Below the pieces are notes generated by a model. It saw only the letters and a list, made by a program, of their open reading frames with translations. It did not search any database and was not told the origin of the DNA. Source: a virus (Duplodnaviria > Caudoviricetes). From it: a DNA stretch of 64,000 bases. The position numbers were made by a program, and so were the translations under genes. The stretch spans positions 1,570 to 65,569 of IMG/VR virus record IMGVR_UViG_3300048819_000116; one strand, given 5' to 3'. Below, piece by piece: positions 22,395 to 51,224 of the stretch (its first letter is position 1; every line of letters begins with the position of its first letter).

Positions 22395-22899
22395 CCTCCT
22401 CCCCGACTCCGCCACATGGATCAGCACGGACGCCGAGTGCCTGCGGTGGGACTGGGTTATCGACGCGATGGAGATACAGGGCGTCTATGTCCATACGCCA
22501 CGCGAGACCGTCATCGAAGCCTTCAAGAACTCGCTCTGCTTCGGCCTCTACCCCGTGGACGCATGGACGCCGGGACCGGAAGGCCCTCCCGCGCCGCAGC
22601 TCGGCTTCGCCCGCGTCGTGACGGACGGCGTGCTGTTCTCGGCCATCCTGGATGTCGTCATCGACGAGCGCATACGCGGGCGGGGCTTGGGCGAGCGCCT
22701 GATGCGGGCCGTCCTCGGGCACCCGAAGGTGCGCGGGACAAACGTGACCCTCCACGCGCTTGAGGCGACGGGCTTCTACCTGAAGCTCGGCTTCACGCCG
22801 TCGGAGAACTTTTCCATGACGCGGCCAGCGCCGAAGATATTCAAGTCCACGCAGGGCGCTGACGAGCTTGCGAGGCGCTACATCGTCTCGCCGCAATGA
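22384..22899 (+). CDS. GNAT-family acetyltransferase
   Basis: GFARVVTD...ILDVVIDERIRGRGLGERL...FYLKLGF; GTG 22384. Confidence 0.88.
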   Translation: MTPDLLPDSATWISTDAECLRWDWVIDAMEIQGVYVHTPRETVIEAFKNSLCFGLYPVDAWTPGPEGPPAPQLGFARVVTDGVLFSAILDVVIDERIRGRGLGERLMRAVLGHPKVRGTNVTLHALEATGFYLKLGFTPSENFSMTRPAPKIFKSTQGADELARRYIVSPQ

Positions 22900-33492: not shown

Positions 33493-33493
33493 T

Positions 33494-35743
33494 ATGGATT
33501 CCCCAACCGCAGACTTCATCCACGACGCCGCGAAGGCGGCAGGGCCGATGCCACCCTCCGACCAGAAGGAGCCGCAGGTGCCGTTCCAGGGGGGCTTGAA
33601 GCTCACCCGGGAGCAGGAGACGCAGATGCTGGACCACGCCTTCCGCAGATTCAAGGACATCAGTAACGAGCTTGGCCGCGACCAGACACTTCAGCCGACT
33701 TGGTGGGCGAACCTCCAGCCGACGCCGAACCTTCAGGCGGCGGCGCAGGGGCTTCTCCCGGCGATGACGTTCCTCGGGAAAAGGAGCCGCTTCGACGCCA
33801 CCTTCATGAACGACGTGTCGTGGAGGCCCTACACGATGGGCGTCGAGAACATCTTCATGTCGTCCAACATCGCGGTGCCGCTCTCCCGGCGCATCTGCGC
33901 CCAGATGATCGCCCGCGCCAAGAAGGCGCTCTTTGGGAGCGACCCGTGGTTCTCCGCCGAACCGTGGCCGGGGCAGGCCGACCCGCTGGAGGACGCGCAG
34001 ATTGACCTCATCGAGCGTTACTGCCGCATGAAGGCCAAGGAGGGAAAGACGAAGGTCAACATGGGCCGCGCCATCACGCAGGCGCTGATCCTCGGCGAGT
34101 GCGCGGTCAAGACGACCTACGTGGTGCGCGACCAGATATTCGACACCGAGGCCCGCGTGCTGGTGGATGTCAACAGCGAGCCCGGCAAGGTTACGCCGAT
34201 GCGCGACCAGAAGGGCAACACGATAACGGAGGACGCCAAGTGGCAGGACAAGGAGGACGGGCTTGGCACGAAGGTCCTTGCCTCCGACGGCGTGACCCCG
34301 CAGCCGGACGCCCCGGTGTACCAGAAGGTGCCGCTCACCCGCCGGCAGGTGCTATTCGAGGGCGCGGTCAGCGAGCCTATCTACTACAAGGACTTTGGCC
34401 TCCCCCAGACGGCGGCAAGCGTGCAGGAGGCCGACACCTGCTACCATATCTACGACAAGCAGGTGGCCGAGTTCGTGGACCTGATCGTGAAGCGCGGGAT
34501 GGTGGACGACAACCCGCAGGGCCGTGCGAGTGCCACGCACAAGATGATCGCGCTCCTTCGCACGCTGGACCAGAACAGCCAGGAGCCCAAGGCCGCGGTG
34601 GACTTGGCCATCCGCCCGCTGGAGTCCATGACGCCGCTCCCCGCCACCCCCGGCGGCGGTCCCGGGCCCGTCGCGGAGTTCATCGAGTTCTACCTCTGGT
34701 GGGACGCGAACGGCGACGGGATCGCGGAGAACATCATGCTGATCGCGGACAGGGCTTCCCAGAAGCCCATCTTCTACGACCACGTTGCCAACGTGACGAC
34801 CGACGGCCTTCGCCCCATCGAGATCGTGAGGATCAAGCCCATCGAGGGCCGCTGGTACGGGCAGGGCATCATGGAGTACTTCGACTGCTACCAGACGATC
34901 GTGGATCTCATGGTGAACCGCTGGAACTTCAGCCAGTCGCGTGCGGGCTACGTCCTGTTCTGGAGCCCGAAGAACACGCTGGAGGGTGACCGCGACCCCT
35001 CGCTCAAGATGAACTTCGGCGGGACGTACACGAAGAAGCAGAACATGAAGGCGGAGGACTGCGTGGAGGTCGTTTACCTGAACGACACCAAGTTCGAGGC
35101 GCTCCACACGATGATCCAGTACTTCATGCAGCTTGCGATGAATGAGAGCGGCGTCACGAACGCGAACGACAATCAGGCGGCGGGGATGCAGTCAGCCAAG
35201 CTGGCGACGGGGATCATGCAGATCGAGCAGTCGGGCGACGAGCTGTTCATGCCGATTCTCGAGGACCTGACCGACCCGCTCACGGGGATACTCAACCGCG
35301 AGATCAGCGTCGTCCTTGCGAACCTTGACCCCGACGAGTTCCGCATCTTCTGCGAGGGCGTGACGGACGGGGTGGACATGATGACGGCGGACGACGTTCG
35401 CGGCCTTCGCCTCCGCTGCGACATCGAGCTAACGACACACAGGAACCAGCAGATTCTCCAGCTTTCGTCGCAGGCGGTCGCGCTCGTGAAGGACTACTAC
35501 ACCAACCCGCCGAACTTGCAACTGATCCTCTGCAACCTCTACCGCAGGCAGCTTCGCATCCTTGACCCGCAGGCGAACGCCGACGAGGTGATCGTGCCGC
35601 AGCAGGGGCCGGTCGGCGCACCCGGCCAGCAGCCTCCGGGCGGCAGCGACATCGGCAACGTCGGCAACGGCGTCGCCCCGGCACAGATGACGCAGGCGGC
35701 AAAGCCTGCCGGCGGCCTGTCGGCGGGGGCGCAGGCGGCATGA
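33494..35743 (+). CDS. portal protein (podovirus-like)
   Basis: 749 aa; WFSAEP, ALILGECAVK, WYGQGIMEY..YQ..VD...NR, SAKLATGI; start moved to ATG 33494. Confidence 0.75.
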   Translation: MDSPTADFIHDAAKAAGPMPPSDQKEPQVPFQGGLKLTREQETQMLDHAFRRFKDISNELGRDQTLQPTWWANLQPTPNLQAAAQGLLPAMTFLGKRSRFDATFMNDVSWRPYTMGVENIFMSSNIAVPLSRRICAQMIARAKKALFGSDPWFSAEPWPGQADPLEDAQIDLIERYCRMKAKEGKTKVNMGRAITQALILGECAVKTTYVVRDQIFDTEARVLVDVNSEPGKVTPMRDQKGNTITEDAKWQDKEDGLGTKVLASDGVTPQPDAPVYQKVPLTRRQVLFEGAVSEPIYYKDFGLPQTAASVQEADTCYHIYDKQVAEFVDLIVKRGMVDDNPQGRASATHKMIALLRTLDQNSQEPKAAVDLAIRPLESMTPLPATPGGGPGPVAEFIEFYLWWDANGDGIAENIMLIADRASQKPIFYDHVANVTTDGLRPIEIVRIKPIEGRWYGQGIMEYFDCYQTIVDLMVNRWNFSQSRAGYVLFWSPKNTLEGDRDPSLKMNFGGTYTKKQNMKAEDCVEVVYLNDTKFEALHTMIQYFMQLAMNESGVTNANDNQAAGMQSAKLATGIMQIEQSGDELFMPILEDLTDPLTGILNREISVVLANLDPDEFRIFCEGVTDGVDMMTADDVRGLRLRCDIELTTHRNQQILQLSSQAVALVKDYYTNPPNLQLILCNLYRRQLRILDPQANADEVIVPQQGPVGAPGQQPPGGSDIGNVGNGVAPAQMTQAAKPAGGLSAGAQAA

Positions 35744-36547: not shown

Positions 36548-37693
36548 ATGCACGTTGTCACCCTCCCCGAAGAAATAGTCATCGACGCAGAGCAGACGAT
36601 CAAACCCGGCGAATACCTCTGCGAGGACATCACGGGGGCGCAGCTCATCAACCTATGCGGGGCGGGCAAAATGACGCCCCTCGTTGAGAGCCGCCCCTTC
36701 GACGACAATGCCGACTGGAACGGGAAGTCGGTCGTCATCGTGCGCGTAGGGGGCTTTGGCGACCTTACCAATCTCACCCCCGCCCTGCGCGAGATGAAGC
36801 GGCGCTGGCCGAGAATCGTCCTCACGGTGGCGACCATGCGCGACTACGGCGACGTGATGAAGGGACTCCCCTACGTGGACCACGTGGTGCGTTATCCGCT
36901 CACGAAGGCCGAGCACGCGAAGTACGACGCTTGGGTGTTCCTTGAGAACGCGATCGAGAACAACCCCCGCGCCGAGGACATCCCGATGGCCGACGTGTTC
37001 GCGGAAATGATCGGCATCGCCCACCCGAAGAAGGCGTGGCTCAAGGGGTCGAAGGACGACGTGAGCGAGTGGACGCCGAAGACCAGCGACCGAAAGCCCG
37101 AGTACCGCGTCAGCGACGACGAAGCCGCGTGGGCCAAGGTCCAGTACCCGCGCATCCCCAACGTGCGCCGCCTCTGCGTTCAGGTCGATGCCTCCATGTC
37201 GGGCCTCTGCCGCGTGTACCCCATGCAGCAGCTTGCGACCATCGTCGAGGCGTTCCAGAAGGAGACGGCGTGGGAGGTGTACCTGATCGGACGCAGGGAG
37301 AACCTTGAGCGCGTTCCCGACGGCCCGAACGTGCGCAACCTGTCCAGCCATGGGCTCTCCTTCCGAAAGACCGCCGCCGTGATCCAAGGCGCAAGCTGCT
37401 TCCTTGGCAGCGACTCGGCCTTCATCCACATCGCAGGCGCGCTGGACGTGCCCTCAGTGGGGCTCTTTGGCCCGTTCCCGTGGGCGCTGCGGACGGTCTA
37501 TTCGCCGTCGGTCTTCGGCATCCAGGGGCGCGGTAAATGCAGCCCATGCTTCTTCCACGAGAAGGGCGGGAGCGCCGTGCGCGCCAAGTTCCCCAAGGAC
37601 TGCCCGTCAAGGGAGCAGGGCCTCTGCGAGGTTCTGGCTGGCATCAAGCCCGAGACCGTGATCGCCAAGGTCAAGAAGATGGCGAGGGAGTAG
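36548..37693 (+). CDS. GT9-family (heptosyltransferase-like, GT-B) glycosyltransferase
   Basis: IVRVGGFGDL...ALREMKRRWP; LSFRKTAAVI..ASCFLGSDSAFIHIAGALDVPSVGLFGP. Confidence 0.9.
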   Translation: MHVVTLPEEIVIDAEQTIKPGEYLCEDITGAQLINLCGAGKMTPLVESRPFDDNADWNGKSVVIVRVGGFGDLTNLTPALREMKRRWPRIVLTVATMRDYGDVMKGLPYVDHVVRYPLTKAEHAKYDAWVFLENAIENNPRAEDIPMADVFAEMIGIAHPKKAWLKGSKDDVSEWTPKTSDRKPEYRVSDDEAAWAKVQYPRIPNVRRLCVQVDASMSGLCRVYPMQQLATIVEAFQKETAWEVYLIGRRENLERVPDGPNVRNLSSHGLSFRKTAAVIQGASCFLGSDSAFIHIAGALDVPSVGLFGPFPWALRTVYSPSVFGIQGRGKCSPCFFHEKGGSAVRAKFPKDCPSREQGLCEVLAGIKPETVIAKVKKMARE

Positions 37694-38020: not shown

Positions 38021-38354
38021 CAACCTGCGGGCGCAGGAGATTTCGGCCCGCCGCGACCTTGAGGACATCCGCACGCTCCAGCGGACGGAAGCCTTCGACC
38101 GCTACTTCATGCGCCGCGTGAGAGACAAGTTCGCGCAGGCGGTCGAGGCGTACAACACCCGCCCCTCCAGCCTGATCTACCATGCGCCGGACACGAAGGA
38201 GAAGCCCTGCACGCCGGAGGAGCGCGAAATCCTGCGCGCGCAATGCGTGGTCCTGCGCGAACTGATCGACCTCGTTGACGAAGGCGAGAAGCAGATCCTT
38301 GGCGAACTCTCCCGTCTGTCGGGGACTCAATTCTCCCCGTCCGGCCCCTCGTAG
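38001..38354 (+). CDS. helical hypothetical protein
   Basis: ATG 38001; 3' part of track ORF 37776..38354. Confidence 0.55.
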   Translation: MTQQDADNLRAQEISARRDLEDIRTLQRTEAFDRYFMRRVRDKFAQAVEAYNTRPSSLIYHAPDTKEKPCTPEEREILRAQCVVLRELIDLVDEGEKQILGELSRLSGTQFSPSGPS

Positions 38355-39100
38355 TCCTCGTTCGAGACGCCCATCGTCCCCTTGGAGGCACCCGGCCCCA
38401 TGGACGCCTTGAGTCCAGTCACGCTCCCGGCAGGCGTCTGCCTCCCCTGAAAGAGCTTGGAGACAAAGCTGCGGTAGAGGCTGGCGCTGGTGGGGTTCGT
38501 GAAGCTCCTCTGGTACGCCCCGTCCCCCGCCGTGAGGCTGTCCCCCTGCGGGGTGTCGGCAGCGGTCGTGTCCGGCGCCGGACTCGCCTCGTTCCTAGGC
38601 TCCATGTCCTGCCCCTGCGGGACGGCGTTCCCCTTGGAACTGAATCCCATGGCCTTCCCCGGGTCCAAGGTCGGCTTCTCAACCGGGACAGAGGTTCCCG
38701 CCACCTGTGGAGCGCCGCCGCCGTTCGTCAGGGGATTCGCCCGCTCGGTCTGGTCCGGCCGGTTGGCCGGCGACGCCGATTGGAGGGTCGAAAGCTGCTG
38801 CGGCGACAGCCCGAAGCCGGTCGCCTGCGGTCCCTTGTAGCCCGCGTCGGGGGCGACGTACTTCAAGACCGCCCCCTTGTTGCCAGCCTGGATAATGCCG
38901 CCCGAACTCGGGGTGGCCTTGTACGCCGAGCGAAGGGGGGATGCCCCGCCCACGGCCTGCGGGGAGGGGTTTGCCGCGGTGCCAACCGGCCCGGGACCGC
39001 CGGGCATGCCGGAGAGCGTCACCTGCGGCTGCGAGGGCGTCCCAAGCCTGCGGGAGATCATGCTCCCGTCCCTGCGCATCGTCTGGGGGAATAGTGGCAT
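38327..39100 (-). CDS. low-complexity P/G/S/A-rich protein
   Basis: Last gene of the inverted block; 1 nt from the upstream stop. Confidence 0.55.
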   Translation of the reverse strand: MPLFPQTMRRDGSMISRRLGTPSQPQVTLSGMPGGPGPVGTAANPSPQAVGGASPLRSAYKATPSSGGIIQAGNKGAVLKYVAPDAGYKGPQATGFGLSPQQLSTLQSASPANRPDQTERANPLTNGGGAPQVAGTSVPVEKPTLDPGKAMGFSSKGNAVPQGQDMEPRNEASPAPDTTAADTPQGDSLTAGDGAYQRSFTNPTSASLYRSFVSKLFQGRQTPAGSVTGLKASMGPGASKGTMGVSNEDYEGPDGEN

Positions 39101-39101
39101 C

Positions 39102-40142
39102 TCAGGTTTCGACCCAAGGGGTCTTTTGCGTTCTTAGGTGTCCTATACACTCCCCTTGGGTCTCGTGTCCAGATGCTATTAGCGTGAACTCCGTCTCGCT
39201 GCCCCCCTTCTTCTTGGCCCAGATGACGTGATCGCAGGGGCAATGGGGGATGACGTTGATGCGCAGCCCGGCGGGCCACCAGCGCCTCCAGACGACGAAC
39301 AGGTCCTCCGTGCCGTTCCCGTCGTAGCCCTCGAAGTTGGCCAAGGCCAGAGCGTCCCGGCCCATGAGGGTGCAGCCGAAGCCGCACCAGTCCGACGGGA
39401 CGACCGAGCCCTTGCCGATCGCCGGGTACGCCTGATCCAGCCAGCCGCGCCGCCTCCAGCCGTGCTTGCCCATCACCTGAAAGACGTTCCCGTCCGGCGG
39501 GCACTTCCTCATCGCCTCGTCGTACTTCTTCCTGCGCTCGACGAACTCCGGCGGCAGCGCCGTGACCTTCTCGTCGTTGAACCGCTTGATCTCGACCTCG
39601 AGCGCCGCCTTCTCGGCCTTGAGCTCGTCCGTCAGCAGCCGCTCAGTCTCAAGGAAGTCCTCCGCGATGGGGTTCTGCGGGGTGCCGCGCCCCCCAAGGA
39701 ACGCCTCGTTGGGGTAGGGGCAGGTGGAGACGGCGTAGTAGCCCGCGTCGAAGCGAAGCATGTCCAGCATGCAGCGAAGCGCATTCGCCGGGGGCAGCGT
39801 GTCGCTGTCGAGGCTCCAGCAATGGTCGGCGCCCACCCTGCGGGCCTCCGAGAACGCCGCGCCCCGAAGCCTCGCTATAAGCATCTGCGCGCCCGCCTTA
39901 TAGTTCACGTCGTCCTTGTTCTCCTCCGCGACGTCGAGGTGGATGACCGCCCAGTGGTCGGGCAGCGCGTCCTTCCACGCCTTGACCGCATCCTTCACCT
40001 GCCTGCTGTTGTCGCCCGCGATGATGGCCGTCCCGCTGCCACTGTACCCCGCCGCGCTGAGGTTGGCCGCCACGCGCCGACCGAGAGTCTTCATCGCGTA
40101 GCAGTAGTTGGCGGTCGCGGCTACGGTTATGGCGAGCTTCAT
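39102..40142 (-). CDS. GT-A-like glycosyltransferase
   Basis: LAITVAAT, IIAGDNS, CWSLDSD (DxD), WCGFGCTLM, GTEDLF, CDH. Confidence 0.7.
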   Translation of the reverse strand: MKLAITVAATANYCYAMKTLGRRVAANLSAAGYSGSGTAIIAGDNSRQVKDAVKAWKDALPDHWAVIHLDVAEENKDDVNYKAGAQMLIARLRGAAFSEARRVGADHCWSLDSDTLPPANALRCMLDMLRFDAGYYAVSTCPYPNEAFLGGRGTPQNPIAEDFLETERLLTDELKAEKAALEVEIKRFNDEKVTALPPEFVERRKKYDEAMRKCPPDGNVFQVMGKHGWRRRGWLDQAYPAIGKGSVVPSDWCGFGCTLMGRDALALANFEGYDGNGTEDLFVVWRRWWPAGLRINVIPHCPCDHVIWAKKKGGSETEFTLIASGHETQGECIGHLRTQKTPWVET

Positions 40143-42121
40143 GTGGTCACGGGGAAGGCTGGGAAGGCGACGAAGGGATTGGGCTCCTGGGAACTGCTGG
40201 CCGAATACACCGCCGGAACCGTCTCTGCCGCCGCCCCTTGGCCCGAGGCCATAGAATAGGTCGAGTGGCCGGTGTCAAAGGTGGATTCGGTCGTCCCGGT
40301 GTTGGAGAAGCTGTCGCAGGTCGTTACCCGAAGGATGCCCACCGTCAGCGTGCCCTTGGTTGAGGTCGTCGATACCCAGTCGAAGCCCCCAAAGGCGGTC
40401 GTCGTAAGCTGGTTCACGTCCGTCGTCGGCACCGTGCCGGTCAGGATGTACGTCTCCGTCCCGGTCGGCACGGCCAAGGACACGGACGGCCAGCCGGAGC
40501 CGGTGGCCTCTATCGACGACGGGCCGCTGATGTTCGTCCCCACCGAGTTGTCTGCCCCGAAGCTGGAGGGCGTCGGCTGCCAGCCGGGCGGGATCGTCGA
40601 ATCCGTGACGGAGAGCATGGATTCAAAGGTGATCGTCGCCCCGCCGGGATCGACTGCGCTGGTGAAGGTCTGCGCGGCCTGTGCGCCGCTGGCGTAGGTC
40701 GAGGCCGAGGCGTTGGTCTGGCCGATAATGTCCACGCCGGAGGCAATCTGCGTCGTTGAGTTCGTCACGGTCACGGTCGAGGTTCCATTGATAAGCTGTA
40801 CCGTCTGGAAGGACGAGTAATCGCCATCGCCTATGAATATCGTCTCCGCCCCCTGCGGGTTGGCCCCGTTGGCCGACGGCTGCGTGTAGGTGACGAGCGT
40901 CGTCAGCGTGCCGCCCGCGCCAGTCGTCACAAACGTCCCGTCGGTCTGCGTGAAGACCGCCGTGACGCTCGTGCCGACATTGTAGGCGAAGGAGCTGGAG
41001 ACCGTCTGCTGGCTGCAATAGGTGAGCGTCGTTCCCTGCGTAGTCAGATACGTGATCGTCTCGGAGACGGTGCTTGTGAGGGGCAGCGCAGCGGCCACCG
41101 TCGTCCCGGTCGTGCTCCCGAAGGTGGTGGTCGTCGTCGTCGGGACCGCGCCCACGGCGTAGGTGGAACTCGTGCTGGCGCTGGTCGTGTAGGTGGTGGT
41201 CGTCGATTGGTAGCTTGAGGCCGACGTGTAGGTCACGGTCGCCAAGGTCGCCGTCGGGTTGTAGCTGCCGACAGGCACGGTCACGCTCCCGAAGGTGAAG
41301 CTGATGGTGGTCTGCGTGAACGAGGCCGCAACCGCCGTCGGGTCGCCGGGTCCTGCCGCCGTCAGCGACCACAGCCAGTCGGTCGATGCCGCGAGGACAA
41401 CGGTGTCGTAGAGGACGAACTGGTTCGCCGCCGAGGATGTGTTGTTGACCGTGGTCGTGAAGTTGGCGGTCGAGGTGACGGATACCGTGGCTGAATAGGT
41501 GCTGGATGAAAGGACGGTCGTCAGCGCCGAATAGGTGGTAGAGGTGGGCGTCCCTGTCGTCGTCTCCGTGAAGCTGGTTGTGGAGGTGTTGGGATAGGTC
41601 GCCCCCAAGGTCGAGGTCGCCGTCGTCACAACCGGGGTGTTCGTGGTTGAGGTCTGAGTGGAATAGACGTAGCTCTGCGTGAACGTCGGGGCCGAGACGG
41701 TGACGAGCGTCGTGTGCGTGGAGGTCCCCGTGACGGACGTCGTGGCGTTCGTCAGTCCGGCCGAGTTGGTGAGGTTCGAGATCGTGAGGGCGCTGAACTG
41801 GGAATGGCTGTGCGTGGACGTGCTGCTGTTGACCGGCCCGAAGGACGTCGAGTTGCTGCCGACGACAGTCCCGCTCTCGATGTGGACGAAGGTCACGTTC
41901 TGGTACACCACGAAGTCCTGAACGGAGGACCACTCCTGCGTCGCGCCTGCCTCGCTGGAGGTGGCCGACATGAAGCTCGAAGCCGTGGACTGCGACGCGC
42001 CGACAGGGGTCTCCGTGAAGACGGTCGTTGAGCCGTTGACGGTCGCGCTAGACGTCTCGGTTGACGAATAGCTGGACGTCCCGGCCAAGACCGCCGCCCG
42101 CGTTGTCTCCCATGTCCACAT
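40139..42121 (-). CDS. extremely Ser/Thr-rich 660-aa putative structural protein
   Basis: 27 of the first 60 residues are S/T; almost no Lys/Arg; coupled to the GT by an ATGA overlap. Confidence 0.7.
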   Translation of the reverse strand: MWTWETTRAAVLAGTSSYSSTETSSATVNGSTTVFTETPVGASQSTASSFMSATSSEAGATQEWSSVQDFVVYQNVTFVHIESGTVVGSNSTSFGPVNSSTSTHSHSQFSALTISNLTNSAGLTNATTSVTGTSTHTTLVTVSAPTFTQSYVYSTQTSTTNTPVVTTATSTLGATYPNTSTTSFTETTTGTPTSTTYSALTTVLSSSTYSATVSVTSTANFTTTVNNTSSAANQFVLYDTVVLAASTDWLWSLTAAGPGDPTAVAASFTQTTISFTFGSVTVPVGSYNPTATLATVTYTSASSYQSTTTTYTTSASTSSTYAVGAVPTTTTTTFGSTTGTTVAAALPLTSTVSETITYLTTQGTTLTYCSQQTVSSSFAYNVGTSVTAVFTQTDGTFVTTGAGGTLTTLVTYTQPSANGANPQGAETIFIGDGDYSSFQTVQLINGTSTVTVTNSTTQIASGVDIIGQTNASASTYASGAQAAQTFTSAVDPGGATITFESMLSVTDSTIPPGWQPTPSSFGADNSVGTNISGPSSIEATGSGWPSVSLAVPTGTETYILTGTVPTTDVNQLTTTAFGGFDWVSTTSTKGTLTVGILRVTTCDSFSNTGTTESTFDTGHSTYSMASGQGAAAETVPAVYSASSSQEPNPFVAFPAFPVTT

Positions 42122-42125
42122 GGCG

Positions 42126-42722
42126 CTAGACCTGCTCGATCAGCCAGGTGTACCAGTTGTCGAACGGCAGCGTGCCCGGCGACGGGGAAGCCTTGTTCGT
42201 CTGGTACTGCAAGGCCCCGATGGCGAACAGGCTCCCGGGGGCGATGCAGCGGAACCAAGTGCCCCCTCCCGCGCCGTTCGTTATGAGGATGCCGAGGAGG
42301 AAGCTGAACGACGTAGGCGGCTGGCCCATGTTGACCGGGATGGCCGCGGGCGCGCTCCCGGCGAAGTTGAGGGCCGCGCTCGCTATCTGGCCGGACGACG
42401 CCGTGCAGTCCAACTGGAGGTAATAGGTGGTGGACGGCGTGAGCGTGAAGGTGCTGGCGTAATTGGAGGGCAGGAGCCCGCTCATGGTGCCCGGCTGCAC
42501 CGTGAAGCTGGACGTGCCGGCCGAGATGACGTCGAAGGGATAGACCGCCGTCCCCCCGCCACCACCCCCGGAGACGGGGCTTAGTATCTGGTCAATCTGG
42601 CGGTCGAACTGCGTCGGCAGGCGGTCGGGCGGATAGACGAGGCGGTTGACTGTGAAGTCGTCGGCCATGGCCGCGAAATCGGCCTCGATGTCCCTCCTCG
42701 ACCTTTCAAGCGGCGATTCCAT
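42126..42722 (-). CDS. putative virion structural protein
   Basis: Gly linker then beta-rich domain (VYPFDVI...TYYLQLD). Confidence 0.55.
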   Translation of the reverse strand: MESPLERSRRDIEADFAAMADDFTVNRLVYPPDRLPTQFDRQIDQILSPVSGGGGGGTAVYPFDVISAGTSSFTVQPGTMSGLLPSNYASTFTLTPSTTYYLQLDCTASSGQIASAALNFAGSAPAAIPVNMGQPPTSFSFLLGILITNGAGGGTWFRCIAPGSLFAIGALQYQTNKASPSPGTLPFDNWYTWLIEQV

Positions 42723-44896
42723 TAGAAGCTGTAGGTGGTCACGATCGACTCATAGACGATGGTGCCTGCGGTGCTGACGAGATAGACGCGGTTCTCGACG
42801 TCGATCGGGGTCGGGCCCGAGGGCGGGGACGACGGCGTGCTCCCGGCAATCGTGTAGCTGTAGGCGCTGACCGGGATGTTGTTGAAGGTGGCGCTGCCCC
42901 CGCTGCCGCCGGTCGCGCCCGAGAGGTAGCCCGTGCATCCCTGCTGGCCGCCGACGCCCACGGAACTGCCGACGGGCGTGTAGCCGTAATTGATGGCCGC
43001 CCACGCCTTGATGGTGAAGGGCGTTGTCGAGACCTGCGTCGTTGGGTACGTGTAGGTCTGCGTCGCCAGGATGTCCATGTTGACCGGGGGGACGAAGACC
43101 CAGCCGGGGTTCGGGGACGTGAGTTCAATCTGACCCGGCATCGAAAACTTGATGCGGCGAAGAAGGGCGATCCCGGTCGGCGGCTTCTTGTAGGTCGCCC
43201 GGTTGACGACGTAGCCCGGCCCTTGCGTCTGCTGGAGGTCGATCAGATAGGCCGTGCCGCTGCCGGGATAGGCGGGCGTGGAGGCCGCCGCCGTGTTGGT
43301 CGTCACCTCGTAGAGGAGCGCGCCGTCGGATTCCCCGCGCGTCGTGATGTTCGTCTGGCCGTTGCCCTCAGCCCAGCGGTAGTCGTAAACGAGCCAGCCA
43401 TTCTCGTTCCTCACCTCGCTCTCCACCAAGACGACGGTGCCCCCGATGGTGGCCGACGGCGTGGAGGGCGCCGTGCCGAGGCCGACGATCCGGTAGCGGA
43501 CGAGTGCGCCCGTCTCAACGGTGTCCACCTCGGAGAAGACTGTGCCCGCGCCCTTCACCCAGACGGTCTTCCAAAAACCGTATCCTTCCGCGTCCTCGTA
43601 GCTCTTGCTTACCAGCACGGTGCCCGAAGGCCCGGATGTCGGCTGGATGGTGGCCCCGGCGGAGACGATGTAGCGGTAGGTCGTCCTCGTGACGCCGTTC
43701 GTCCCGGTATCGACCGATTGCAGGTACTCGGTATCGACGGAAATCTGAGCGCCGGTTGATCCGCCAGCGGACTCAGCCCACTTGTACGTGTAGATGACGG
43801 TGCCGTCCTCGAAGCGCGTGCCGTTGCGGACGTCGGTCGAGATGAGCGCAAGCGTGCCGCCGATGGCCGGGGACGGCGCGGACGGCGCGGAGTTGATCGC
43901 CGTGATGGTCGTTATCTGGAGCTTGTCGTTCAGGCGAATCTCGACCTCGGTGGCGATGGTGCCTTGGCCAAAACTATAGATGCCCGACCAAAGTCGGTAT
44001 CCGTCCTGCTCCTCGTAGGAGATGCTGATCTCCTCGTAGCCTCCGGGCGTCGATATGGGGTTCGACGATCCGGGCGCGGCGATGTAGCGTATCGTCTGAA
44101 CGGTTACGCCGGTCGTGCCTTGGTCCGGGGACAGCCGGTACTCCGTTTGCAGCGAGATTTGGCCGAGGCCCTTGGCAAAAGTATATTGGTAAAGAGCGTT
44201 CCCGTTCGGGTGATCGACCTTCGCATCAATCAGAACAGCGCCGCTTGGTGTCGGCGGGACTTCGTTCACATAGACGAGCGTCGTAAGGACCAGCGCGCCG
44301 TTGAACTTGTCGGTGATCGTTTGTGAAATCTCCCCCTTGGAAATATAGTGCCGCTCGATCCGTTGGAGGGTTCCGTCGTCGGTTCGTATCTCCTCCTTGA
44401 GGACGCAAGTCGCGCCCGGCTCGGAAGTGATGGATGACGTGCCCGGCGTCAGGAAGGTCGGGGTGATCCCGCTGACCGATACGGAGAACTGGAGGAAGTG
44501 CTGGGTTACTTCTACAAGGCCGTCTTGGTCGATGGTCGTGTCGTCGTCGCCGACTTTGGTTTCTCCGGTCGCGCTTATCTGCTCGTAAACCCTCGTGAGC
44601 GTCGGGAAGATCGTGTTTGGATTATCGCCGGGGCCGTTCAACTCAAACTGCCCCTCGATGGTCTGCTTTATCAGCAGGCAGTTCGAATACGAGGAACCCT
44701 CAGAGGGTGGCACTGAGTCCGCGCTGCCCCACGGCAAAGTGTACGCGCTGACGCCCGGTTGTGTCGTTCCTGCCGTCTGGAATTTCGGCACCTCCCCGAG
44801 GATGTCGTAAACGCGAGTGATTCGCTGGCGCAGGTCGGGCAGCGTCTCGACTTTGGGCGCACGATTACGCAAATCCGGGGCCTTGTAGTTTGCCAC
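42722..44896 (-). CDS. beta-rich virion-like protein with internal ~60-70-aa repeats
   Basis: Recurring [YW]xx(K/E)GxGxI...G.L/V units; start moved to GTG 44896 because the rest of the track ORF is antisense to the scaffold gene. Confidence 0.65.
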   Translation of the reverse strand: MANYKAPDLRNRAPKVETLPDLRQRITRVYDILGEVPKFQTAGTTQPGVSAYTLPWGSADSVPPSEGSSYSNCLLIKQTIEGQFELNGPGDNPNTIFPTLTRVYEQISATGETKVGDDDTTIDQDGLVEVTQHFLQFSVSVSGITPTFLTPGTSSITSEPGATCVLKEEIRTDDGTLQRIERHYISKGEISQTITDKFNGALVLTTLVYVNEVPPTPSGAVLIDAKVDHPNGNALYQYTFAKGLGQISLQTEYRLSPDQGTTGVTVQTIRYIAAPGSSNPISTPGGYEEISISYEEQDGYRLWSGIYSFGQGTIATEVEIRLNDKLQITTITAINSAPSAPSPAIGGTLALISTDVRNGTRFEDGTVIYTYKWAESAGGSTGAQISVDTEYLQSVDTGTNGVTRTTYRYIVSAGATIQPTSGPSGTVLVSKSYEDAEGYGFWKTVWVKGAGTVFSEVDTVETGALVRYRIVGLGTAPSTPSATIGGTVVLVESEVRNENGWLVYDYRWAEGNGQTNITTRGESDGALLYEVTTNTAAASTPAYPGSGTAYLIDLQQTQGPGYVVNRATYKKPPTGIALLRRIKFSMPGQIELTSPNPGWVFVPPVNMDILATQTYTYPTTQVSTTPFTIKAWAAINYGYTPVGSSVGVGGQQGCTGYLSGATGGSGGSATFNNIPVSAYSYTIAGSTPSSPPSGPTPIDVENRVYLVSTAGTIVYESIVTTYSF

Positions 44897-44944
44897 GCCC
44901 CCGCCATGCCACGAACGGCCCGTTATTACAAGTTCCCAACGGCT

Positions 44945-44995
44945 CCTAATGGTTAATAGGTATTGACAACAAAAATTAACCGTTAATAACGGCCC
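44945..44995. promoter_or_regulatory. AT-rich divergent control region
   Basis: TTGACA 44963-44968; inverted repeats GGTTAAT/ATTAACC and TTAAC-C-GTTAA. Confidence 0.5.
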
Positions 44996-44999
44996 CCAT

Positions 45000-46181
45000 A
45001 TGGTAGCCACAGAACCGCGGGTCAGCTCCGGTTCCGCCCCACAGGCAGAACCTGCACAGCCGGTCAAACCGGCAAGTTCATTGCAGACATCCCAGGCAGA
45101 GCAGGAAAAGGCGACGATGGCGCTTCTCGGGTCAGCGAACAATCCCAAGGGGGTCTTAGACCTCGTGAAGGAGCTGACAAAGCAGGCGCCACGAAAGGAC
45201 CCCCCTCCGACCCCGGAGGACGGCACGTTCCCGGTTGAACCCGAGACGCCAGCCGCCCCGGAAGCCGCACCAGCCACGCCCGACGCGGGGACTCCCCCGG
45301 AAGGCGAGCCAGCGGCCCCGGCGGAAGGGGCAGAGCCCGCAGAGCCAGCCGCGCAAGCGGAACCCGACCCAGAGCCCGAACCGTCCGGCGAGGTAACACC
45401 CGTCAAGGCGGACAGGGCGCGCATCCGTCTCAACGAGAAGGATGAGGTCGGTCGGCTCGCAGCAGCCTACCAGATACGGAACCGCGACTGGACCCTCGAA
45501 CAGTGTCTCGCGGCGGCGAAGGAAAAGCTCGGCGTATCGCCAGCCACCCCCGCAGCCCCGGCGCCCGAGGCCCCCGCGCCCGTAGGCGACCCAAAGCTCC
45601 CGCGCACGATCAGCGAGGTTGACTCCACGATCGAGAGGCTGGAAGCCGACAAGGTCCAGGCAGCTAAGGACATCGACATGGCGAAAGTCAGCGAGATCGA
45701 CGTCCAATTGCGCAGGCTCGACCGCCAGAGGACCGCCCTTGAAAGGGCCGAGGAACGCGGAGCAACGCAGCAGGCAGCGGCCTACGACCGGCAATTCGCC
45801 GACTCGGAGACACGCGCCGCAGAATTTTACCCGTTCGTCTCGGACAAGGACAGCCCCCTTCGCCAGCGCATGATCGAGATCGAGGAATCACTGGAGGCCC
45901 TTTCGGACCCCCTGTTCCACGACCCGAACAAGCCGCTCCTCATCGCCCAGATGGTTGCGAAGGAAAACTCCATCGCGCCCAAGAAGGCATCTGCCGCCAG
46001 AGTCGCCGCGCCGGCCCAGCCCGCGGCACCGCGCCCGCCGCCCAAGGGGGTCCTCCCCTCCGGGTCGTCGCGCTCGGCCGCAGCCCCGCAAGTCAACCCC
46101 GTTGACGCGGCCATTTCCTCTATCAAGACCCAGGGTGACGTCCAGAAACTCATGAAGTCGCTAGGTGTAAGGCAGTTCTAA
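45000..46181 (+). CDS. capsid scaffolding protein
   Basis: Acidic P/A/E-rich N-terminus, coiled coil, PPPKGVLPSG tail; lies directly before the capsid gene. Confidence 0.65.
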   Translation: MVATEPRVSSGSAPQAEPAQPVKPASSLQTSQAEQEKATMALLGSANNPKGVLDLVKELTKQAPRKDPPPTPEDGTFPVEPETPAAPEAAPATPDAGTPPEGEPAAPAEGAEPAEPAAQAEPDPEPEPSGEVTPVKADRARIRLNEKDEVGRLAAAYQIRNRDWTLEQCLAAAKEKLGVSPATPAAPAPEAPAPVGDPKLPRTISEVDSTIERLEADKVQAAKDIDMAKVSEIDVQLRRLDRQRTALERAEERGATQQAAAYDRQFADSETRAAEFYPFVSDKDSPLRQRMIEIEESLEALSDPLFHDPNKPLLIAQMVAKENSIAPKKASAARVAAPAQPAAPRPPPKGVLPSGSSRSAAAPQVNPVDAAISSIKTQGDVQKLMKSLGVRQF

Positions 46182-46263: not shown

Positions 46264-47748
46264 ATGACAAATTTCCAACTCGGCACACCGAACACAGGCT
46301 TGGCGCTCGCCAACATGAGCCCGGCCTCGGTGCGCCAAATCTGGCAGAAGGTCGTCGATGTCTTCGAGCAGTCCGAGGACTTCTGGCAGCAGTTCGAGGG
46401 GACGAGCAAGCACTCGCCCATCTGGGTCATCAATGACACCGCGGTCGGCAAGGGCCTGACCTTCAACGTTACGGCGCGCGCGGGCTACTACGGCCCGGGC
46501 AAGCTCGGGGACAACCTGTTCAATGTCCAGAGCGACTTCGAGACCGACGTCATCAACAACAACCAGATGGTCGCGGACTACCTGCGCAATGCGACGAGCA
46601 TCACGCAGAGGACCGACGAGTATCTCGGCATGCAGGGCGAGCTCGCCTCGGGCCAGGCTGAGGAGCTTGGCAAGTGGATGGGCCGCGAGAAGTCGGCGAG
46701 GGTCTTCATGACCATCCGGCTCCTGGGGCAGGCGAACAACTACTTCAACTCCAACGGCAAGTCGTCCGTCGGCGTCCTGAAGACAGCCGACGTCCTGACC
46801 TACAACGACATCCTGATGATGGGCCAGGCCCTGAAGCCGAAGGGTGGCACCCCCTGCGAGGTGGGCACCATTCGCGGGACCCCGGTTCGCAAGTACTGCG
46901 TCGTCGGGACGACCCCGGGCCTCTACGGGCTCAAGCAGGACCCGAACTACCAGCTCATCCTCCAGAACGCGGCCCCCCGCGAGAAGTGGGACGAGAACCC
47001 GCTCTTTCAGGGCGGCTACGCGGAACTGGACGGCCACTCCATCCGGGAGTACAACCCGGTTGACGCCGACGGCTACGCGGTCGCGGGCTCCGGGTTCAAC
47101 CCGAAGGCTTACCTCGGCACCGCCATCACGGCGGGGACAGGGGCCTTCGCGGTCGCGGGCGGCGGTTCGGCTGCGGCGGCTGCGGTCACAACCACGCAGT
47201 ACTTCAGGTACTTCGGCAACTACGCCTTCCCGTTCACGTCCCTGAACACGTACTCGCCGGGTTCGGCCGTGCAGTACTTCCTCGTCATCAACGCGCCCAG
47301 CGATCCCTACGGAAGCGGCGTCTCGATGTACGCCTACACGACCGGCAACAACGGCAACACGATCACGATCACGCAGCGCCTCGCTGCGGTGCAGAATGGT
47401 CCGGTCGCGCTCTCCACGGTCGGCAACGTCACATGGAACACCGGCCCCTGGGCGGGTCTCTGCAACGAGAACCACTCCATCGGCTCGACGATCGTCCAAT
47501 GCAACGCCTACGGCGTGCCGATCGGTCAGTCGGTCATGTTCGGCTCGGGCTTCATGCTCCGCGGCTACGGCTCCATGAGGAACCAGCGTTCCCAGTGGGT
47601 CGTGGACGGCGGGTTCGAGACCAGGAAGTACATCACGTCCGTCTTCGGCCAGCAGCTGCGGCAGAACACGAACGGGACCTATCCCGGCTTCGTCTGCATG
47701 ACGCACGCCCTCTCCTACCCGGAGCTCGGCCTGCCGGCGATCACGTAA
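46264..47748 (+). CDS. major capsid protein (HK97 fold, N4 gp56/DUF4043-like) with inserted domain
   Basis: Position after the scaffold; GKGLTFNV...G.G..GD, LTYNDI.......LKP, LFQGG..ELDG, MFGSG. Confidence 0.75.
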   Translation: MTNFQLGTPNTGLALANMSPASVRQIWQKVVDVFEQSEDFWQQFEGTSKHSPIWVINDTAVGKGLTFNVTARAGYYGPGKLGDNLFNVQSDFETDVINNNQMVADYLRNATSITQRTDEYLGMQGELASGQAEELGKWMGREKSARVFMTIRLLGQANNYFNSNGKSSVGVLKTADVLTYNDILMMGQALKPKGGTPCEVGTIRGTPVRKYCVVGTTPGLYGLKQDPNYQLILQNAAPREKWDENPLFQGGYAELDGHSIREYNPVDADGYAVAGSGFNPKAYLGTAITAGTGAFAVAGGGSAAAAAVTTTQYFRYFGNYAFPFTSLNTYSPGSAVQYFLVINAPSDPYGSGVSMYAYTTGNNGNTITITQRLAAVQNGPVALSTVGNVTWNTGPWAGLCNENHSIGSTIVQCNAYGVPIGQSVMFGSGFMLRGYGSMRNQRSQWVVDGGFETRKYITSVFGQQLRQNTNGTYPGFVCMTHALSYPELGLPAIT

Positions 47749-50201: not shown

Positions 50202-51224
50202 ATGCCCTTTTCAAACGTCCCCCAGCCCCCGTTCACCGGCGTCATCGGCACCGACGACCAGATCAACATCAAGCGGTCGAACGGCATCCTGTTCAACGAA
50301 CTGGGCGGCGTGCCGATCGGGAGCATCCTGGCCTTGGCCTCGACGCTGCCCAACTTCTCGCCGGAGCTGGGGGTCTCGGCGGGCGCGTCGGCGGGCAGCT
50401 TCTCGGCCCTCACCTTCTCGAACTCGAACGGGGTATCGTTTGGCATCTCAAACGGCGTCGTGACGGGGACCGTCCAGTCCACCGGCCTCGCCTCGGAGTG
50501 GAACCCCCCGGCCTTCGGAAGCTCCATCGTCAGCAATTCGTCCTTGGGCCAGAACTCCATCTACTTCGCGCCGTTCGACATCGAGGAGCCGCTGAATGCC
50601 TTCCGCCTGAACCTGTTCGCCTCGGTCGGCACGTCGTCGGGGCAGGCGTCGAACTCGACATGGGGCGTCGGCTTCACAGGCAGCGCCGCCCTCTACCAGC
50701 GCGACGTCGGCACGAACTCGACGCAGGCGACCTCCTTCTGGAGCGGAAGCTTCTTCTTCAGCGCGCAGGGGAGCAGCAACAGCAACATGACGATGACGGT
50801 GCCGATCGGCATCCTCAACTCGACGGCGATGCAGACGACGACAGGGCAGTCGTCCTCCTACCTTGCGTCCAGCGTGGGCGGCTTCCGCGCCATCCCGATG
50901 CCCATGTCGCTGACGCTGTTCCCGGGGCGCTACATCCTCGCGTTCGCCAACAGCAGCTCGACCTCGAATCTGGCGAACACCCTTGCCTTGACCTTCATGC
51001 AGCAGACGTTCGGACAGCTCCAGTTCCGGCCACTCGGCACGTCGTCCGCCGCGTCGAACGCCAGCTTCTTCGATCCCAACGGGGGCTTCGGCACGTTCAG
51101 CGCGACGTCGAACGCCTTCCCGGGCAGCGTGGCCCTGAACTCGAACTCGATCCTTGCCGCGACCGCCGCCACCCGAATCATGTTCAACTTCTCCGGCTAC
51201 ACCACGGGCACGAACGTCCTGTAA
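50202..51224 (+). CDS. tail fibre/spike-like protein A
   Basis: Ser-rich; one FSNSNGVSFG unit; C-terminal domain paralogous to that of 51242..53524. Confidence 0.6.
   Translation: MPFSNVPQPPFTGVIGTDDQINIKRSNGILFNELGGVPIGSILALASTLPNFSPELGVSAGASAGSFSALTFSNSNGVSFGISNGVVTGTVQSTGLASEWNPPAFGSSIVSNSSLGQNSIYFAPFDIEEPLNAFRLNLFASVGTSSGQASNSTWGVGFTGSAALYQRDVGTNSTQATSFWSGSFFFSAQGSSNSNMTMTVPIGILNSTAMQTTTGQSSSYLASSVGGFRAIPMPMSLTLFPGRYILAFANSSSTSNLANTLALTFMQQTFGQLQFRPLGTSSAASNASFFDPNGGFGTFSATSNAFPGSVALNSNSILAATAATRIMFNFSGYTTGTNVL

What the first reader, a model, noticed from the sequence alone, without database searches (positions are those of the whole stretch)
39102..42121. GT translationally coupled to a mucin-like Ser/Thr-rich protein: candidate enzyme-substrate pair
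The 660-aa protein is about 45% S/T at its N-terminus (27 of the first 60), nearly lacks Lys/Arg and has many N-x-S/T triplets, although those are expected by chance at this composition. Its stop overlaps the start of a DxD-bearing GT-A-like gene. Stoichiometric coupling suggests a dedicated modifier, by analogy with bacterial serine-rich-repeat adhesin/GT loci (inference).
Basis: partly seen in the sequence, partly recalled or inferred. Interest (0 to 1): 0.72.

Follow-up and report, generated by a model that had tools for sequence, protein, structure and literature searches.

The report
Phage sugar-transferase paired with Thr/Ser-rich fibre protein
An uncultured phage of Planctomycetes/Verrucomicrobia-type bacteria carries an unannotated sugar-adding enzyme that, across dozens of distant relatives, always sits beside the most threonine/serine-rich large protein of the particle-gene region, so the phage probably sugar-coats that protein, though no experiment shows it.

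Summary
On the minus strand, a 660-aa protein (40139-42121) is 40% Ser+Thr with 1 Lys and 2 Arg. Its stop overlaps (ATGA) the start of a 346-aa gene (39102-40142) with an invariant DSD motif. N-x-S/T triplets are not enriched (14 vs 9.6 expected).

The 660-aa protein is not mucin-like or serine-rich-repeat-like. It has no repeats, 4% Pro and evenly spread hydrophobic residues, and it is under purifying selection without indels. It looks like a hypervariable fibre-type virion protein with a conserved N-terminal tip (MWTW).

- In 32 of 36 distinct loci the enzyme lies next to a large protein with at least 25% Ser+Thr, always the richest in the locus, in four gene orientations.
- Sister phages lacking the enzyme also lack this protein and the 198-aa gene before it.

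An enzyme-substrate pair is therefore the best reading (about 45%), but co-inheritance as a swappable cassette is not excluded. Translational coupling adds little. Earlier notes of this scan report a similar pairing in other phages, attributed to a plant-like (GT95/96-type) enzyme; I did not compare the two.

The parts
40139..42121 (-). ST660: 660-aa Thr/Ser-rich (40%), nearly Lys/Arg-free, acidic protein. It has a conserved N-terminal tip (MWTW...), a hypervariable body of about 500 aa, and a C-terminal domain of about 155 aa (residues 505-659) conserved among nearer relatives. Candidate fibre-type virion protein and candidate glycosylation substrate.
   Evidence: composition, no repeats; only 27 representatives, with the C-terminal 155 aa as the conserved part; dN/dS 0.156, no indels; N-terminal motif; AF2 pLDDT 40, all-beta, fold unresolved; no family hit.
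39102..40142 (-). GT346: 346-aa soluble GT-A-fold glycosyltransferase of an unannotated family. Invariant residues are D44, D112-S-D114, E279-D280 and a Cys/His cluster (C253, C257, H300, C301, C303, H305).
40139..40142 (-). ATGA stop/start overlap between ST660 and GT346.
   Evidence: It is generic in this genome and kept in about half of the tandem relatives.
42126..42722 (-). p198: conserved 198-aa protein directly upstream of ST660 (core motifs GGGG...PFD...PGTxNGLLPSNY...YYTW). It is the third member of the cassette that is present or absent together with ST660 and GT346. Candidate adaptor for the fibre (inference).
   Evidence: 17 of 17 p198 loci also carry GT346; absent where GT346 is absent.
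42722..44890 (-). p903: large virion-module protein upstream of p198. Homology to relatives starts at about residue 182 of the listed 903-aa ORF, so the true start is near 44890. It is kept in relatives both with and without GT346.
38327..39100 (-). p257: Pro/Gly/Ser/Ala-rich 257-aa protein, last gene of the tightly packed minus-strand operon. Weakly conserved, role unknown.
36548..37693 (+). GT9-family (heptosyltransferase-like) glycosyltransferase between the portal gene and the minus-strand block. It is retained in relatives that lack GT346/ST660, so it is not tied to this pair.

Best explanation
The window is a complete 65.6-kb genome of an uncultured podovirus-like phage whose relatives are binned with Planctomycetota and Verrucomicrobiota. 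A late operon on the minus strand (p903, p198, ST660, GT346, p257) lies between the portal and capsid genes. GT346 is a soluble, cytoplasmic, metal-dependent GT-A glycosyltransferase. The most likely reading is that it transfers a sugar from a nucleotide-sugar donor onto Ser/Thr hydroxyls of ST660 before or during virion assembly. ST660 would be a folded, beta-rich, hypervariable fibre-type particle protein anchored through its conserved N-terminal tip, possibly to p198. Other phage glycosyltransferases and FkbM-type methyltransferases may then extend or cap the glycan. Shown: the fold and conserved catalytic-type residues of GT346; the composition and selective constraint of ST660; and the conserved adjacency and joint presence or absence of p198, ST660 and GT346. 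Inferred: that ST660 is the acceptor, that it is a virion fibre, the O-linkage, the donor sugar and the biological purpose (shielding, stability or adhesion).
Against: There is no direct evidence of modification. The three genes may simply be co-inherited as a host-range cassette, so the presence/absence correlation is confounded by linkage and shared ancestry. High S/T is common in phage fibres, and two other S/T-rich, charge-poor proteins of this genome (p760, p340) are not next to GT346. In the most distant group the partner has only 21-26% S/T. Four loci lack an adjacent S/T-rich ORF: L003 and L053 have one 1-2 genes away, L024 is borderline at 24.9%, and L032 has none. The fold search cannot tell protein acceptors from glycan or lipid acceptors, and many top VIA matches act on glycans or lipid carriers. 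The ST660 model is unusable (pLDDT 40), so its fold and virion role are inferred from context only. No fused GT-substrate form was found.
Confidence: 0.45

Rival explanations
1. GT346 acts on a non-protein acceptor, such as a host envelope glycan or receptor or a lipid-linked intermediate. It would travel with the receptor-binding fibre gene because enzyme and fibre concern the same host surface structure. From memory, tailspike genes adjoin O-antigen conversion genes in P22-like phages; this was not checked here.
For: Many of the best structural matches are glycan or lipid-carrier GT-A enzymes: WrtF, GtrB, ArnC, TarS, hyaluronan and chondroitin synthases. p198, ST660 and GT346 behave as one swappable cassette, as host-range modules do. 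The partner is hypervariable like a receptor-binding protein.
Against: GT346 has no membrane segment visible in its sequence or model. It is a core gene as conserved as the capsid rather than an accessory moron. No integrase or lysogeny module was noticed, although that was not searched systematically. This reading does not explain why the partner's only conserved property is extreme S/T content.
Confidence: 0.22
2. The adjacency is only synteny. ST660 is an ordinary unglycosylated beta-rich fibre, and GT346 belongs to a general phage glycan pathway whose target is another virion protein (capsid, p760, p340) or several proteins at once.
For: Other S/T-rich, charge-poor virion proteins exist in this genome. 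Glycan genes are dispersed over the genome. Phage structural gene order is conserved by descent. Tight gene packing is generic here.
Against: Adjacency persists through inversions and relocation, and in a locus without detectable virion genes (L054). GT9 stays when the trio is lost, so the trio is a unit of its own. The GT is always next to the single most S/T-rich large ORF.
Confidence: 0.2
3. GT346 is a catalytically inactive GT-fold protein that serves as an assembly chaperone or structural partner of the fibre.
For: Its position directly after a fibre-like gene resembles tail-fibre chaperone genes (established knowledge of phage gene order). It also has a family-specific helical insert (residues 172-212) and a Cys/His cluster.
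Against: The nucleotide- and metal-binding and candidate base residues (D44, D112, D114, E279, D280) are invariant over 25 homologues down to 55% identity. That is not expected of a pseudo-enzyme.
Confidence: 0.06
4. GT346 glycosylates phage DNA bases.
For: A TET-associated glycosyltransferase appears among weaker viral fold matches (E 1e-4). The genome has two DNA methylases.
Against: The gene lies inside the virion module, not with the replication or modification genes. No hydroxymethylase or base-modification partner was seen next to it. The link to an S/T-rich protein would be unexplained.
Confidence: 0.03

Closest known systems
Mycobacteriophage virion glycosylation (Che8, Corndog, Myrna; Freeman et al. 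2023, Cell Host Microbe 31:1216, read only through PMC12363180)
   Same: Phage-encoded glycosyltransferases modify the phage's own particle proteins in the host cytoplasm. This is the only experimentally shown bacterial-virus case I could cite.
   Different: The targets there are capsid and tail-tube proteins. GT346 has no sequence match in 50,697 deposited phage genomes, the collection expected to hold those phages. The hosts are PVC bacteria rather than actinobacteria. Here the candidate target is a whole 600-800-aa S/T-rich fibre-type protein encoded next to the enzyme.
Autotransporter heptosyltransferase-adhesin pairs TibC/TibA and AAH/AIDA-I (BAHT family; PMC4358343)
   Same: A dedicated glycosyltransferase hyper-glycosylates Ser/Thr residues of an adhesin in the cytoplasm. 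That the enzyme and adhesin genes are adjacent is recalled from memory, not checked here.
   Different: BAHTs are heptosyltransferases, whereas GT346 is GT-A. The substrate there is a repeat-built secreted adhesin, and ST660 has no repeats or signal peptide. The window's own GT9 gene is not linked to ST660.
Serine-rich-repeat adhesin loci with GtfA/GtfB
   Same: An S/T-rich surface protein with a dedicated O-glycosyltransferase encoded in the same locus.
   Different: No serine-rich tandem repeats. GT346 has a GT-A, not a GT-B, fold. ST660 has no LPXTG anchor at its C-terminus, and no accessory Sec genes were noticed in the window, though they were not searched for.
Chlorovirus PBCV-1 and giant-virus capsid/fibril glycosylation by virus-encoded GTs and methyltransferases (PMC7826918, PMC9614988, PMC10117803)
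   Same: The virus carries its own multi-enzyme glycan machinery (GT-A domains plus methyltransferases) for particle proteins, independent of host glycosylation.
   Different: Those are eukaryotic giant viruses with N-linked atypical glycans on the major capsid protein, and no enzyme-substrate gene adjacency.
GT-A structural neighbours: COLGALT1/GT25, WrtF, SpsA, TarS, GtrB, ArnC
   Same: Rossmann-like GT-A core. The DxD follows strand 4 and an Asp follows strand 2.
   Different: Only 10-17% identity and no Pfam family hit. Family-specific features are a helical hairpin (172-212), a disordered conserved loop (137-154) and a Cys/His cluster.
Earlier notes of this scan: GT95/GT96-like phage glycosyltransferase next to poly-Thr-tagged virion proteins (e.g. 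e1-5407906, e1-5368847)
   Same: The same theme: an unannotated phage GT encoded beside Thr-rich particle proteins across unrelated phages.
   Different: By those notes it is a different enzyme family, paired with short poly-Thr/Pro tags or linkers. Here the enzyme is a distinct GT-A family and the whole protein is S/T-rich. I did not compare the two enzyme families directly; a sequence look-up found no look-alike window.

Membership tests
GT-A fold glycosyltransferase superfamily | Single Rossmann-like alpha/beta/alpha nucleotide-binding domain matching solved GT-A enzymes | tested here: met
GT-A fold glycosyltransferase superfamily | DxD metal/nucleotide-sugar motif after strand 4, conserved in the family | tested here: met
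   D112-S-D114 directly follows strand 107-112 of the model and is invariant in 25 homologues. D44 after strand 2 is also invariant.
GT-A fold glycosyltransferase superfamily | Glycosyl-transfer activity | not testable with these tools
   Needs an enzyme assay.
Named sequence families (Pfam Glycos_transf_2, Glyco_transf_25 and others; NCBIfam; PHROGs) | Significant profile-HMM match | tested here: not met
   No hit at E <= 0.1 in Pfam, none at E <= 0.01 in PHROGs, none at E <= 0.1 in NCBIfam. A profile search against PDB sequences found nothing relevant.
Serine-rich-repeat adhesin / GtfAB system | Long tandem Ser-rich repeats in the substrate | tested here: not met
   Self-BLAST finds no internal repeat, and the longest S/T run is 6 residues.
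Serine-rich-repeat adhesin / GtfAB system | GT-B (GT4-type) GtfA/GtfB enzyme pair | tested here: not met
   GT346 is a single GT-A domain.
Mucin-like domain | Pro/Thr/Ser-rich low-complexity, largely disordered tracts, poor in aromatic and hydrophobic residues, tolerant of indels | tested here: not met
   Pro 4.2%, aromatics 8.9%, and the longest stretch without V/I/L/F/Y/W/M is 15 aa. dN/dS is 0.156 with no indel over 660 codons. The AF2 model is all-beta but of low confidence.
Phage self-glycosylation of virion proteins (mycobacteriophage type) | Phage-encoded glycosyltransferase(s) | tested here: met
   GT346, GT9 and a PHROG glycosyltransferase at 20928-21677.
Phage self-glycosylation of virion proteins (mycobacteriophage type) | The acceptor is a virion structural protein | tested here: inconclusive
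   ST660 lies between the portal and capsid genes in an operon with large conserved proteins. It has no family or fold assignment.
Phage self-glycosylation of virion proteins (mycobacteriophage type) | Glycans detected on the particle protein | not testable with these tools
   Needs mass spectrometry or glycan staining. The phage is uncultured, with no match in deposited phage genomes.
BAHT-type enzyme-adhesin pair (TibC/TibA) | Heptosyltransferase enzyme (GT9-like by my recollection) dedicated to the adjacent adhesin | tested here: not met
   The adjacent enzyme is GT-A. The window's GT9 gene is three genes away on the other strand and persists in relatives without the S/T protein.

The most novel reading that the evidence does not exclude
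An unannotated GT-A family with more than 650 members is a core gene of a widespread uncultured phage lineage of Planctomycetota/Verrucomicrobiota. It exists to hyper-glycosylate a hypervariable Thr/Ser-rich receptor-binding fibre. The sugar coat, rather than the fast-changing peptide surface, would then be a constant functional feature of the host-recognition organelle, serving as shield, stabiliser or ligand. The three-gene cassette (adaptor, fibre, glycosyltransferase) would be exchanged as a unit between very different phage backbones.
Probability: 0.3. Interest if true: 0.72.

Novelty: new variant of a known kind. Interest (0 to 1): 0.56.

Why it matters
Self-glycosylation of bacteriophage particles has, as far as I could find, been shown experimentally only in mycobacteriophages, where it alters antibody recognition. 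If GT346 glycosylates its neighbour, phage-encoded particle glycosylation extends to a different host phylum, a different enzyme family and a different target (a fibre-type protein rather than capsid or tail tube). It would then be a core trait, not an accessory one. Together with the other GT/Thr-rich pairings noted by this scan, it suggests that sugar-coated phage particles are under-recognised. That matters for host-range prediction, phage stability and phage immunogenicity.

Tried and rejected
- Pfam, PHROGs and NCBIfam on ST660, GT346, p198, p903 and p257 gave nothing usable. The only hit was a sub-threshold choice-of-anchor R match for p198.
- Pfam on 32 positional orthologues of ST660 gave nothing beyond one weak Big_9 hit.
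- tblastn of GT346, p903 and the portal against 50,697 deposited phage genomes found no match, so there is no cultured relative.
- PDB sequence searches with profiles of GT346, p198 and ST660 and with p760 gave nothing meaningful. The GT9 protein had no PDB hit at E <= 0.01, so a TibC-type relationship could not be tested.
- The ESM Atlas gave no usable hit for ST660 or p903.
- The AlphaFold model of ST660 with a 28-sequence alignment had pLDDT 40, so I ran no fold search on it.
- A search for long fused forms of GT346 found none; this is weak evidence.
- Hydrophobic periodicity in ST660 was not significant. S/T shows only a weak lag-2 signal (z 2.2).
- N-glycosylation sequon enrichment is rejected.
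- A GC3-filtered automatic gene call wrongly dropped true S/T-rich ORFs and was replaced by an unfiltered adjacency test.
Loci came from the search for related loci instead.
- The first alignments of p198 and of the ST660 C-terminal domain were too divergent for pattern scans and were narrowed.
Full report
**What is there**

The window covers bases 1570-65569 of a single 65,569-bp contig. It has an SU10-type portal (33467-35743), a major head protein (46264-47748), a terminase (22896-25754), a 2466-codon virion gene, helicases and DNA methylases. It is therefore a phage genome of about 64% GC.

Between the portal and the scaffold/capsid genes lies a tightly packed minus-strand operon: p903 (42722 to about 44890), p198 (42126-42722), ST660 (40139-42121), GT346 (39102-40142) and p257 (38327-39100).

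**Check of the observation**

- ST660 has 24.5% Thr and 15.6% Ser, with 27 S/T in its first 60 residues.
- It has 1 Lys and 2 Arg against 30 acidic residues.
- Its stop overlaps the GT346 start as ATGA.
- GT346 has a single DxD (D112-S-D114).
- N-x-S/T triplets number 14, against 9.6 +/- 2.4 in composition-preserving shuffles (p about 0.06), so they carry no signal.

The reading frame is real and constrained. Against a 93%-identical relative (L002), dN/dS is 0.156 at dS 0.31, with no indel in 660 codons. That is similar to p198 (0.15) and GT346 (0.11).

A public protein atlas holds this protein only from Met51. However, codons 1-50 are conserved, with a single amino-acid difference from L002 in the first 50 residues. 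The first residues (MWTW...) recur in distant positional orthologues. Met1 is therefore the likely start.

**What GT346 is**

GT346 matches no Pfam, PHROG or NCBIfam model and nothing in deposited phage genomes. It nevertheless has at least 658 homologues at 55-99% identity, every one unnamed or called 'hypothetical protein' by its source.

An AlphaFold model built from 25 homologues has pLDDT 79.
- Foldseek's top PDB hit is the collagen hydroxylysine galactosyltransferase COLGALT1 (E 1e-6), followed by chondroitin polymerase, SpsA, TarS and ArnC.
- Viral GT-A proteins match too.

The invariant residues sit where GT-A enzymes bind nucleotide and metal: D44 after strand 2 and DSD after strand 4, with E279-D280 as a candidate base.

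Family-specific features are a conserved low-confidence loop (137-154), a helical hairpin (172-212) and an invariant Cys/His cluster (C253, C257, H300, C301, C303, H305). That the cluster binds a metal is my inference. No membrane segment is apparent.

The fold shows that GT346 is a GT-A glycosyltransferase. It does not reveal the acceptor.

**What ST660 is**

ST660 is not mucin-like and not a serine-rich-repeat protein.
- It has no internal repeats.
- Pro is 4.2% and aromatics are 8.9%.
- Hydrophobic residues occur at least every 15 residues, and the longest S/T run is six.
- Selective constraint is uniform along its length.

A reading of 1.84 billion representative proteins found only 27 relatives. 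In most of them only the C-terminal ~155 residues (505-659) match, and a few align over most of the length at 33-39% identity. The body of about 500 residues is hypervariable.

The AlphaFold model is all-beta but unreliable (pLDDT 40), so the fold is unresolved.

Three features fit a fibre- or receptor-binding-type virion protein: its position in the virion module, its hypervariability between two conserved flanking genes, and its conserved N-terminal tip. This is an inference from context.

The composition is not unique in this genome. p760 (28.8% S/T, 1.2% K+R, 1.2% D+E) and p340 (25.9% S/T) share the S/T-rich, charge-poor style.

**Is the pairing conserved?**

Loci came from scans of viral, genome and metagenome contigs, using GT346, p198, the ST660 C-terminal domain and the capsid as queries.

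Of 36 distinct GT346 loci, 32 have a directly adjacent ORF of 381-1681 aa with 25-43% S/T. In all 32 it is the most S/T-rich large ORF of the 4-21 kb fetched. Locus GC ranges from 0.27 to 0.65.

The four exceptions are:
- L003, where a 773-aa, 42% S/T protein lies one gene away;
- L053, with a 24% S/T protein two genes away;
- L024, borderline at 24.9%;
- L032, with none.

The orientation varies. Most loci are tandem. Three groups are convergent (L018/L033, L029, L050/L051). One locus is divergent (L054), and one has the partner downstream (L056).

L054 lies on a 1.19-Mb Planctomycetaceae contig. There the neighbour is a 1681-aa protein whose first 600 residues are 30-55% S/T. The surrounding genes encode ankyrin, Ser/Thr kinase and ThiF/JAB domains rather than recognisable virion proteins.

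In the L093-L099 group (capsid 41% identical) the trio sits on the other side of the portal gene. The partner there has 21-26% S/T.

All 17 p198 loci carry GT346. All new ST660 homologues with flanking DNA have GT346 immediately downstream (L066, L067).

**The informative contrast**

Capsid-anchored loci revealed sister phages with capsids 60-65% identical to the window's: L075, L076, L077, L080/81, L085 and L087, plus the more distant L103 (40%). They keep portal, GT9, p903, scaffold and capsid in the same order, except that L103 shows no p903 or scaffold match. They lack p198, the S/T-rich protein and GT346 together. The proteins that follow p903 there are 350-720 aa with 15-20% S/T.

L074 (the same contig as L006) has the same capsid divergence but carries GT346, and its partner has 43% S/T.

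The three genes therefore come and go as a unit, and hyper-S/T composition tracks the enzyme. This is what an enzyme-substrate pair predicts. It is equally what linkage inside a swappable host-range cassette predicts, and the loci are not phylogenetically independent.

GT9 persists without the trio, so it is not the dedicated partner of ST660.

**Translational coupling**

The ATGA overlap is real but weak as an argument.
- Four or more other gene junctions in the window have the same 4-nt overlap (coordinates).
- All five genes of this operon are packed within 0-4 nt.
- Only about half of the tandem relatives keep the overlap; the rest have gaps of 0-40 nt.
- Several loci have the genes on opposite strands.

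**Mechanism proposed**

ST660 and GT346 are made together late in infection. GT346 is soluble and cytoplasmic. It would use a nucleotide sugar with a divalent metal at the DSD motif to O-glycosylate Ser/Thr of ST660.

Further phage enzymes could extend or methylate the glycan. Candidates are GT9, a PHROG glycosyltransferase at 20928-21677, two FkbM methyltransferases and a Methyltransf_24.

The modified protein would then be mounted on the particle through its N-terminal tip, perhaps via p198.

Shown: the enzyme fold and its conserved residues, the composition and constraint of the partner, and the conserved adjacency and co-occurrence. Inferred: the acceptor, the linkage, the donor, virion location and purpose. 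I put this reading at about 0.45.

The rivals are:
- a non-protein (host envelope) acceptor, with linkage to the fibre gene (0.22);
- mere synteny, with other virion proteins as targets (0.20);
- a non-catalytic chaperone (0.06), disfavoured by the invariant catalytic-type residues;
- DNA glycosylation (0.03).

**Comparison with what is known**

The nearest functional precedent is mycobacteriophage virion glycosylation, where capsid and tail-tube proteins are modified by phage glycosyltransferases (Freeman 2023, read through PMC12363180).

For an adhesin hyper-glycosylated by a dedicated enzyme, the precedent is TibC/TibA and AAH/AIDA-I (PMC4358343). That those enzyme and adhesin genes are adjacent is my recollection.

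For a virus-encoded multi-enzyme glycan machinery with methyltransferases, the precedent is the chloroviruses and giant viruses (PMC7826918, PMC9614988, PMC10117803).

This case differs from each in enzyme family, target type and host. The serine-rich-repeat analogy fails its defining features.

Earlier notes of this scan describe a similar theme in other phages, with a GT95/96-like enzyme next to poly-Thr tags. No window with a GT346 look-alike is on record, and I did not test those notes.

Another note on this genome lists a dispersed set of GT and methyltransferase genes. I confirmed it in part.

**Verdict**

This is a new variant of a known kind: phage self-glycosylation by a new GT-A family with a neighbouring fibre-type acceptor. 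It is moderately interesting and directly testable by two-gene co-expression.

Noticed in passing
window 50202-51224 (+) and 51242-53524 (+): Two further virion-module proteins, p340 and p760, are S/T-rich (25.9% and 28.8%) and almost uncharged (K+R 2.4% and 1.2%; D+E 2.9% and 1.2%). They have no family or PDB match. Near-absence of charged residues in several outer particle proteins of one phage is unusual and unexplained.
   Followed up: partly
window 42100-42121 (-), N-terminus of ST660; loci L006, L007, L023, L025, L028, L034, L066 and others: A short N-terminal tip (MWTW / MWSY / MxxTW) is conserved in positional orthologues that otherwise share no detectable sequence. This suggests an anchoring peptide. 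A public atlas record starts this protein at Met51, which would cut the tip off.
   Followed up: partly
window 39102-40142 (-), residues 251-257 and 300-305 of GT346: Motifs DWCGFGC and HCPCDH form an invariant Cys/His cluster, possibly a zinc site. This is not a standard feature of GT-A enzymes as far as I know. It was not examined in the model's coordinates.
   Followed up: no
L054:4856-11083 (Planctomycetaceae MAG contig JAWKUB010000002.1): A 59%-identical GT346 homologue lies divergently next to a 1681-aa protein whose first 600 residues are 30-55% S/T. The neighbours are ankyrin-repeat, Ser/Thr kinase, ThiF and JAB genes, and no virion genes were detected. This may be a cellular or remnant-prophage use of the same pairing.
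   Followed up: partly
L053-L060 (genome contigs): GT346 homologues in binned genomes all come from Planctomycetota and Verrucomicrobiota (Rariglobus, Opitutales, Chthoniobacteraceae), which points to PVC bacteria as hosts of this phage lineage. One Chthoniobacteraceae contig holds two partial copies about 45 kb apart.
   Followed up: no
L075, L076, L077, L080, L085, L087, L103: Sister phages replace the p198-ST-GT346 trio with unrelated genes encoding proteins of 350-720 aa, while keeping portal, GT9, p903 (not detected in L103), scaffold and capsid. This is a clean example of cassette exchange at a presumed host-recognition locus.
   Followed up: partly
window 22896-25754 (+): The 952-aa terminase-like protein has its terminase PHROG match only at residues 807-913. 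It also has a weak match to a PHROG labelled thymidylate synthase at residues 203-278. The long N-terminal part is unexplained.
   Followed up: no
window 44890-45433 (-) versus 45000-46181 (+): The listed 903-aa ORF has a Gly/Ser/Ala-rich 5' extension of about 180 codons that overlaps the scaffold-like gene p393 on the other strand and has no counterpart in relatives. It is probably not translated.
   Followed up: partly
L003:5448-10004: One relative carries two large genes between p198 and GT346: a 773-aa, 42% S/T protein with the ST660-type C-terminal domain, followed by a 740-aa, 20% S/T, K/R-poor protein with a signal-peptide-like N-terminus.
   Followed up: no
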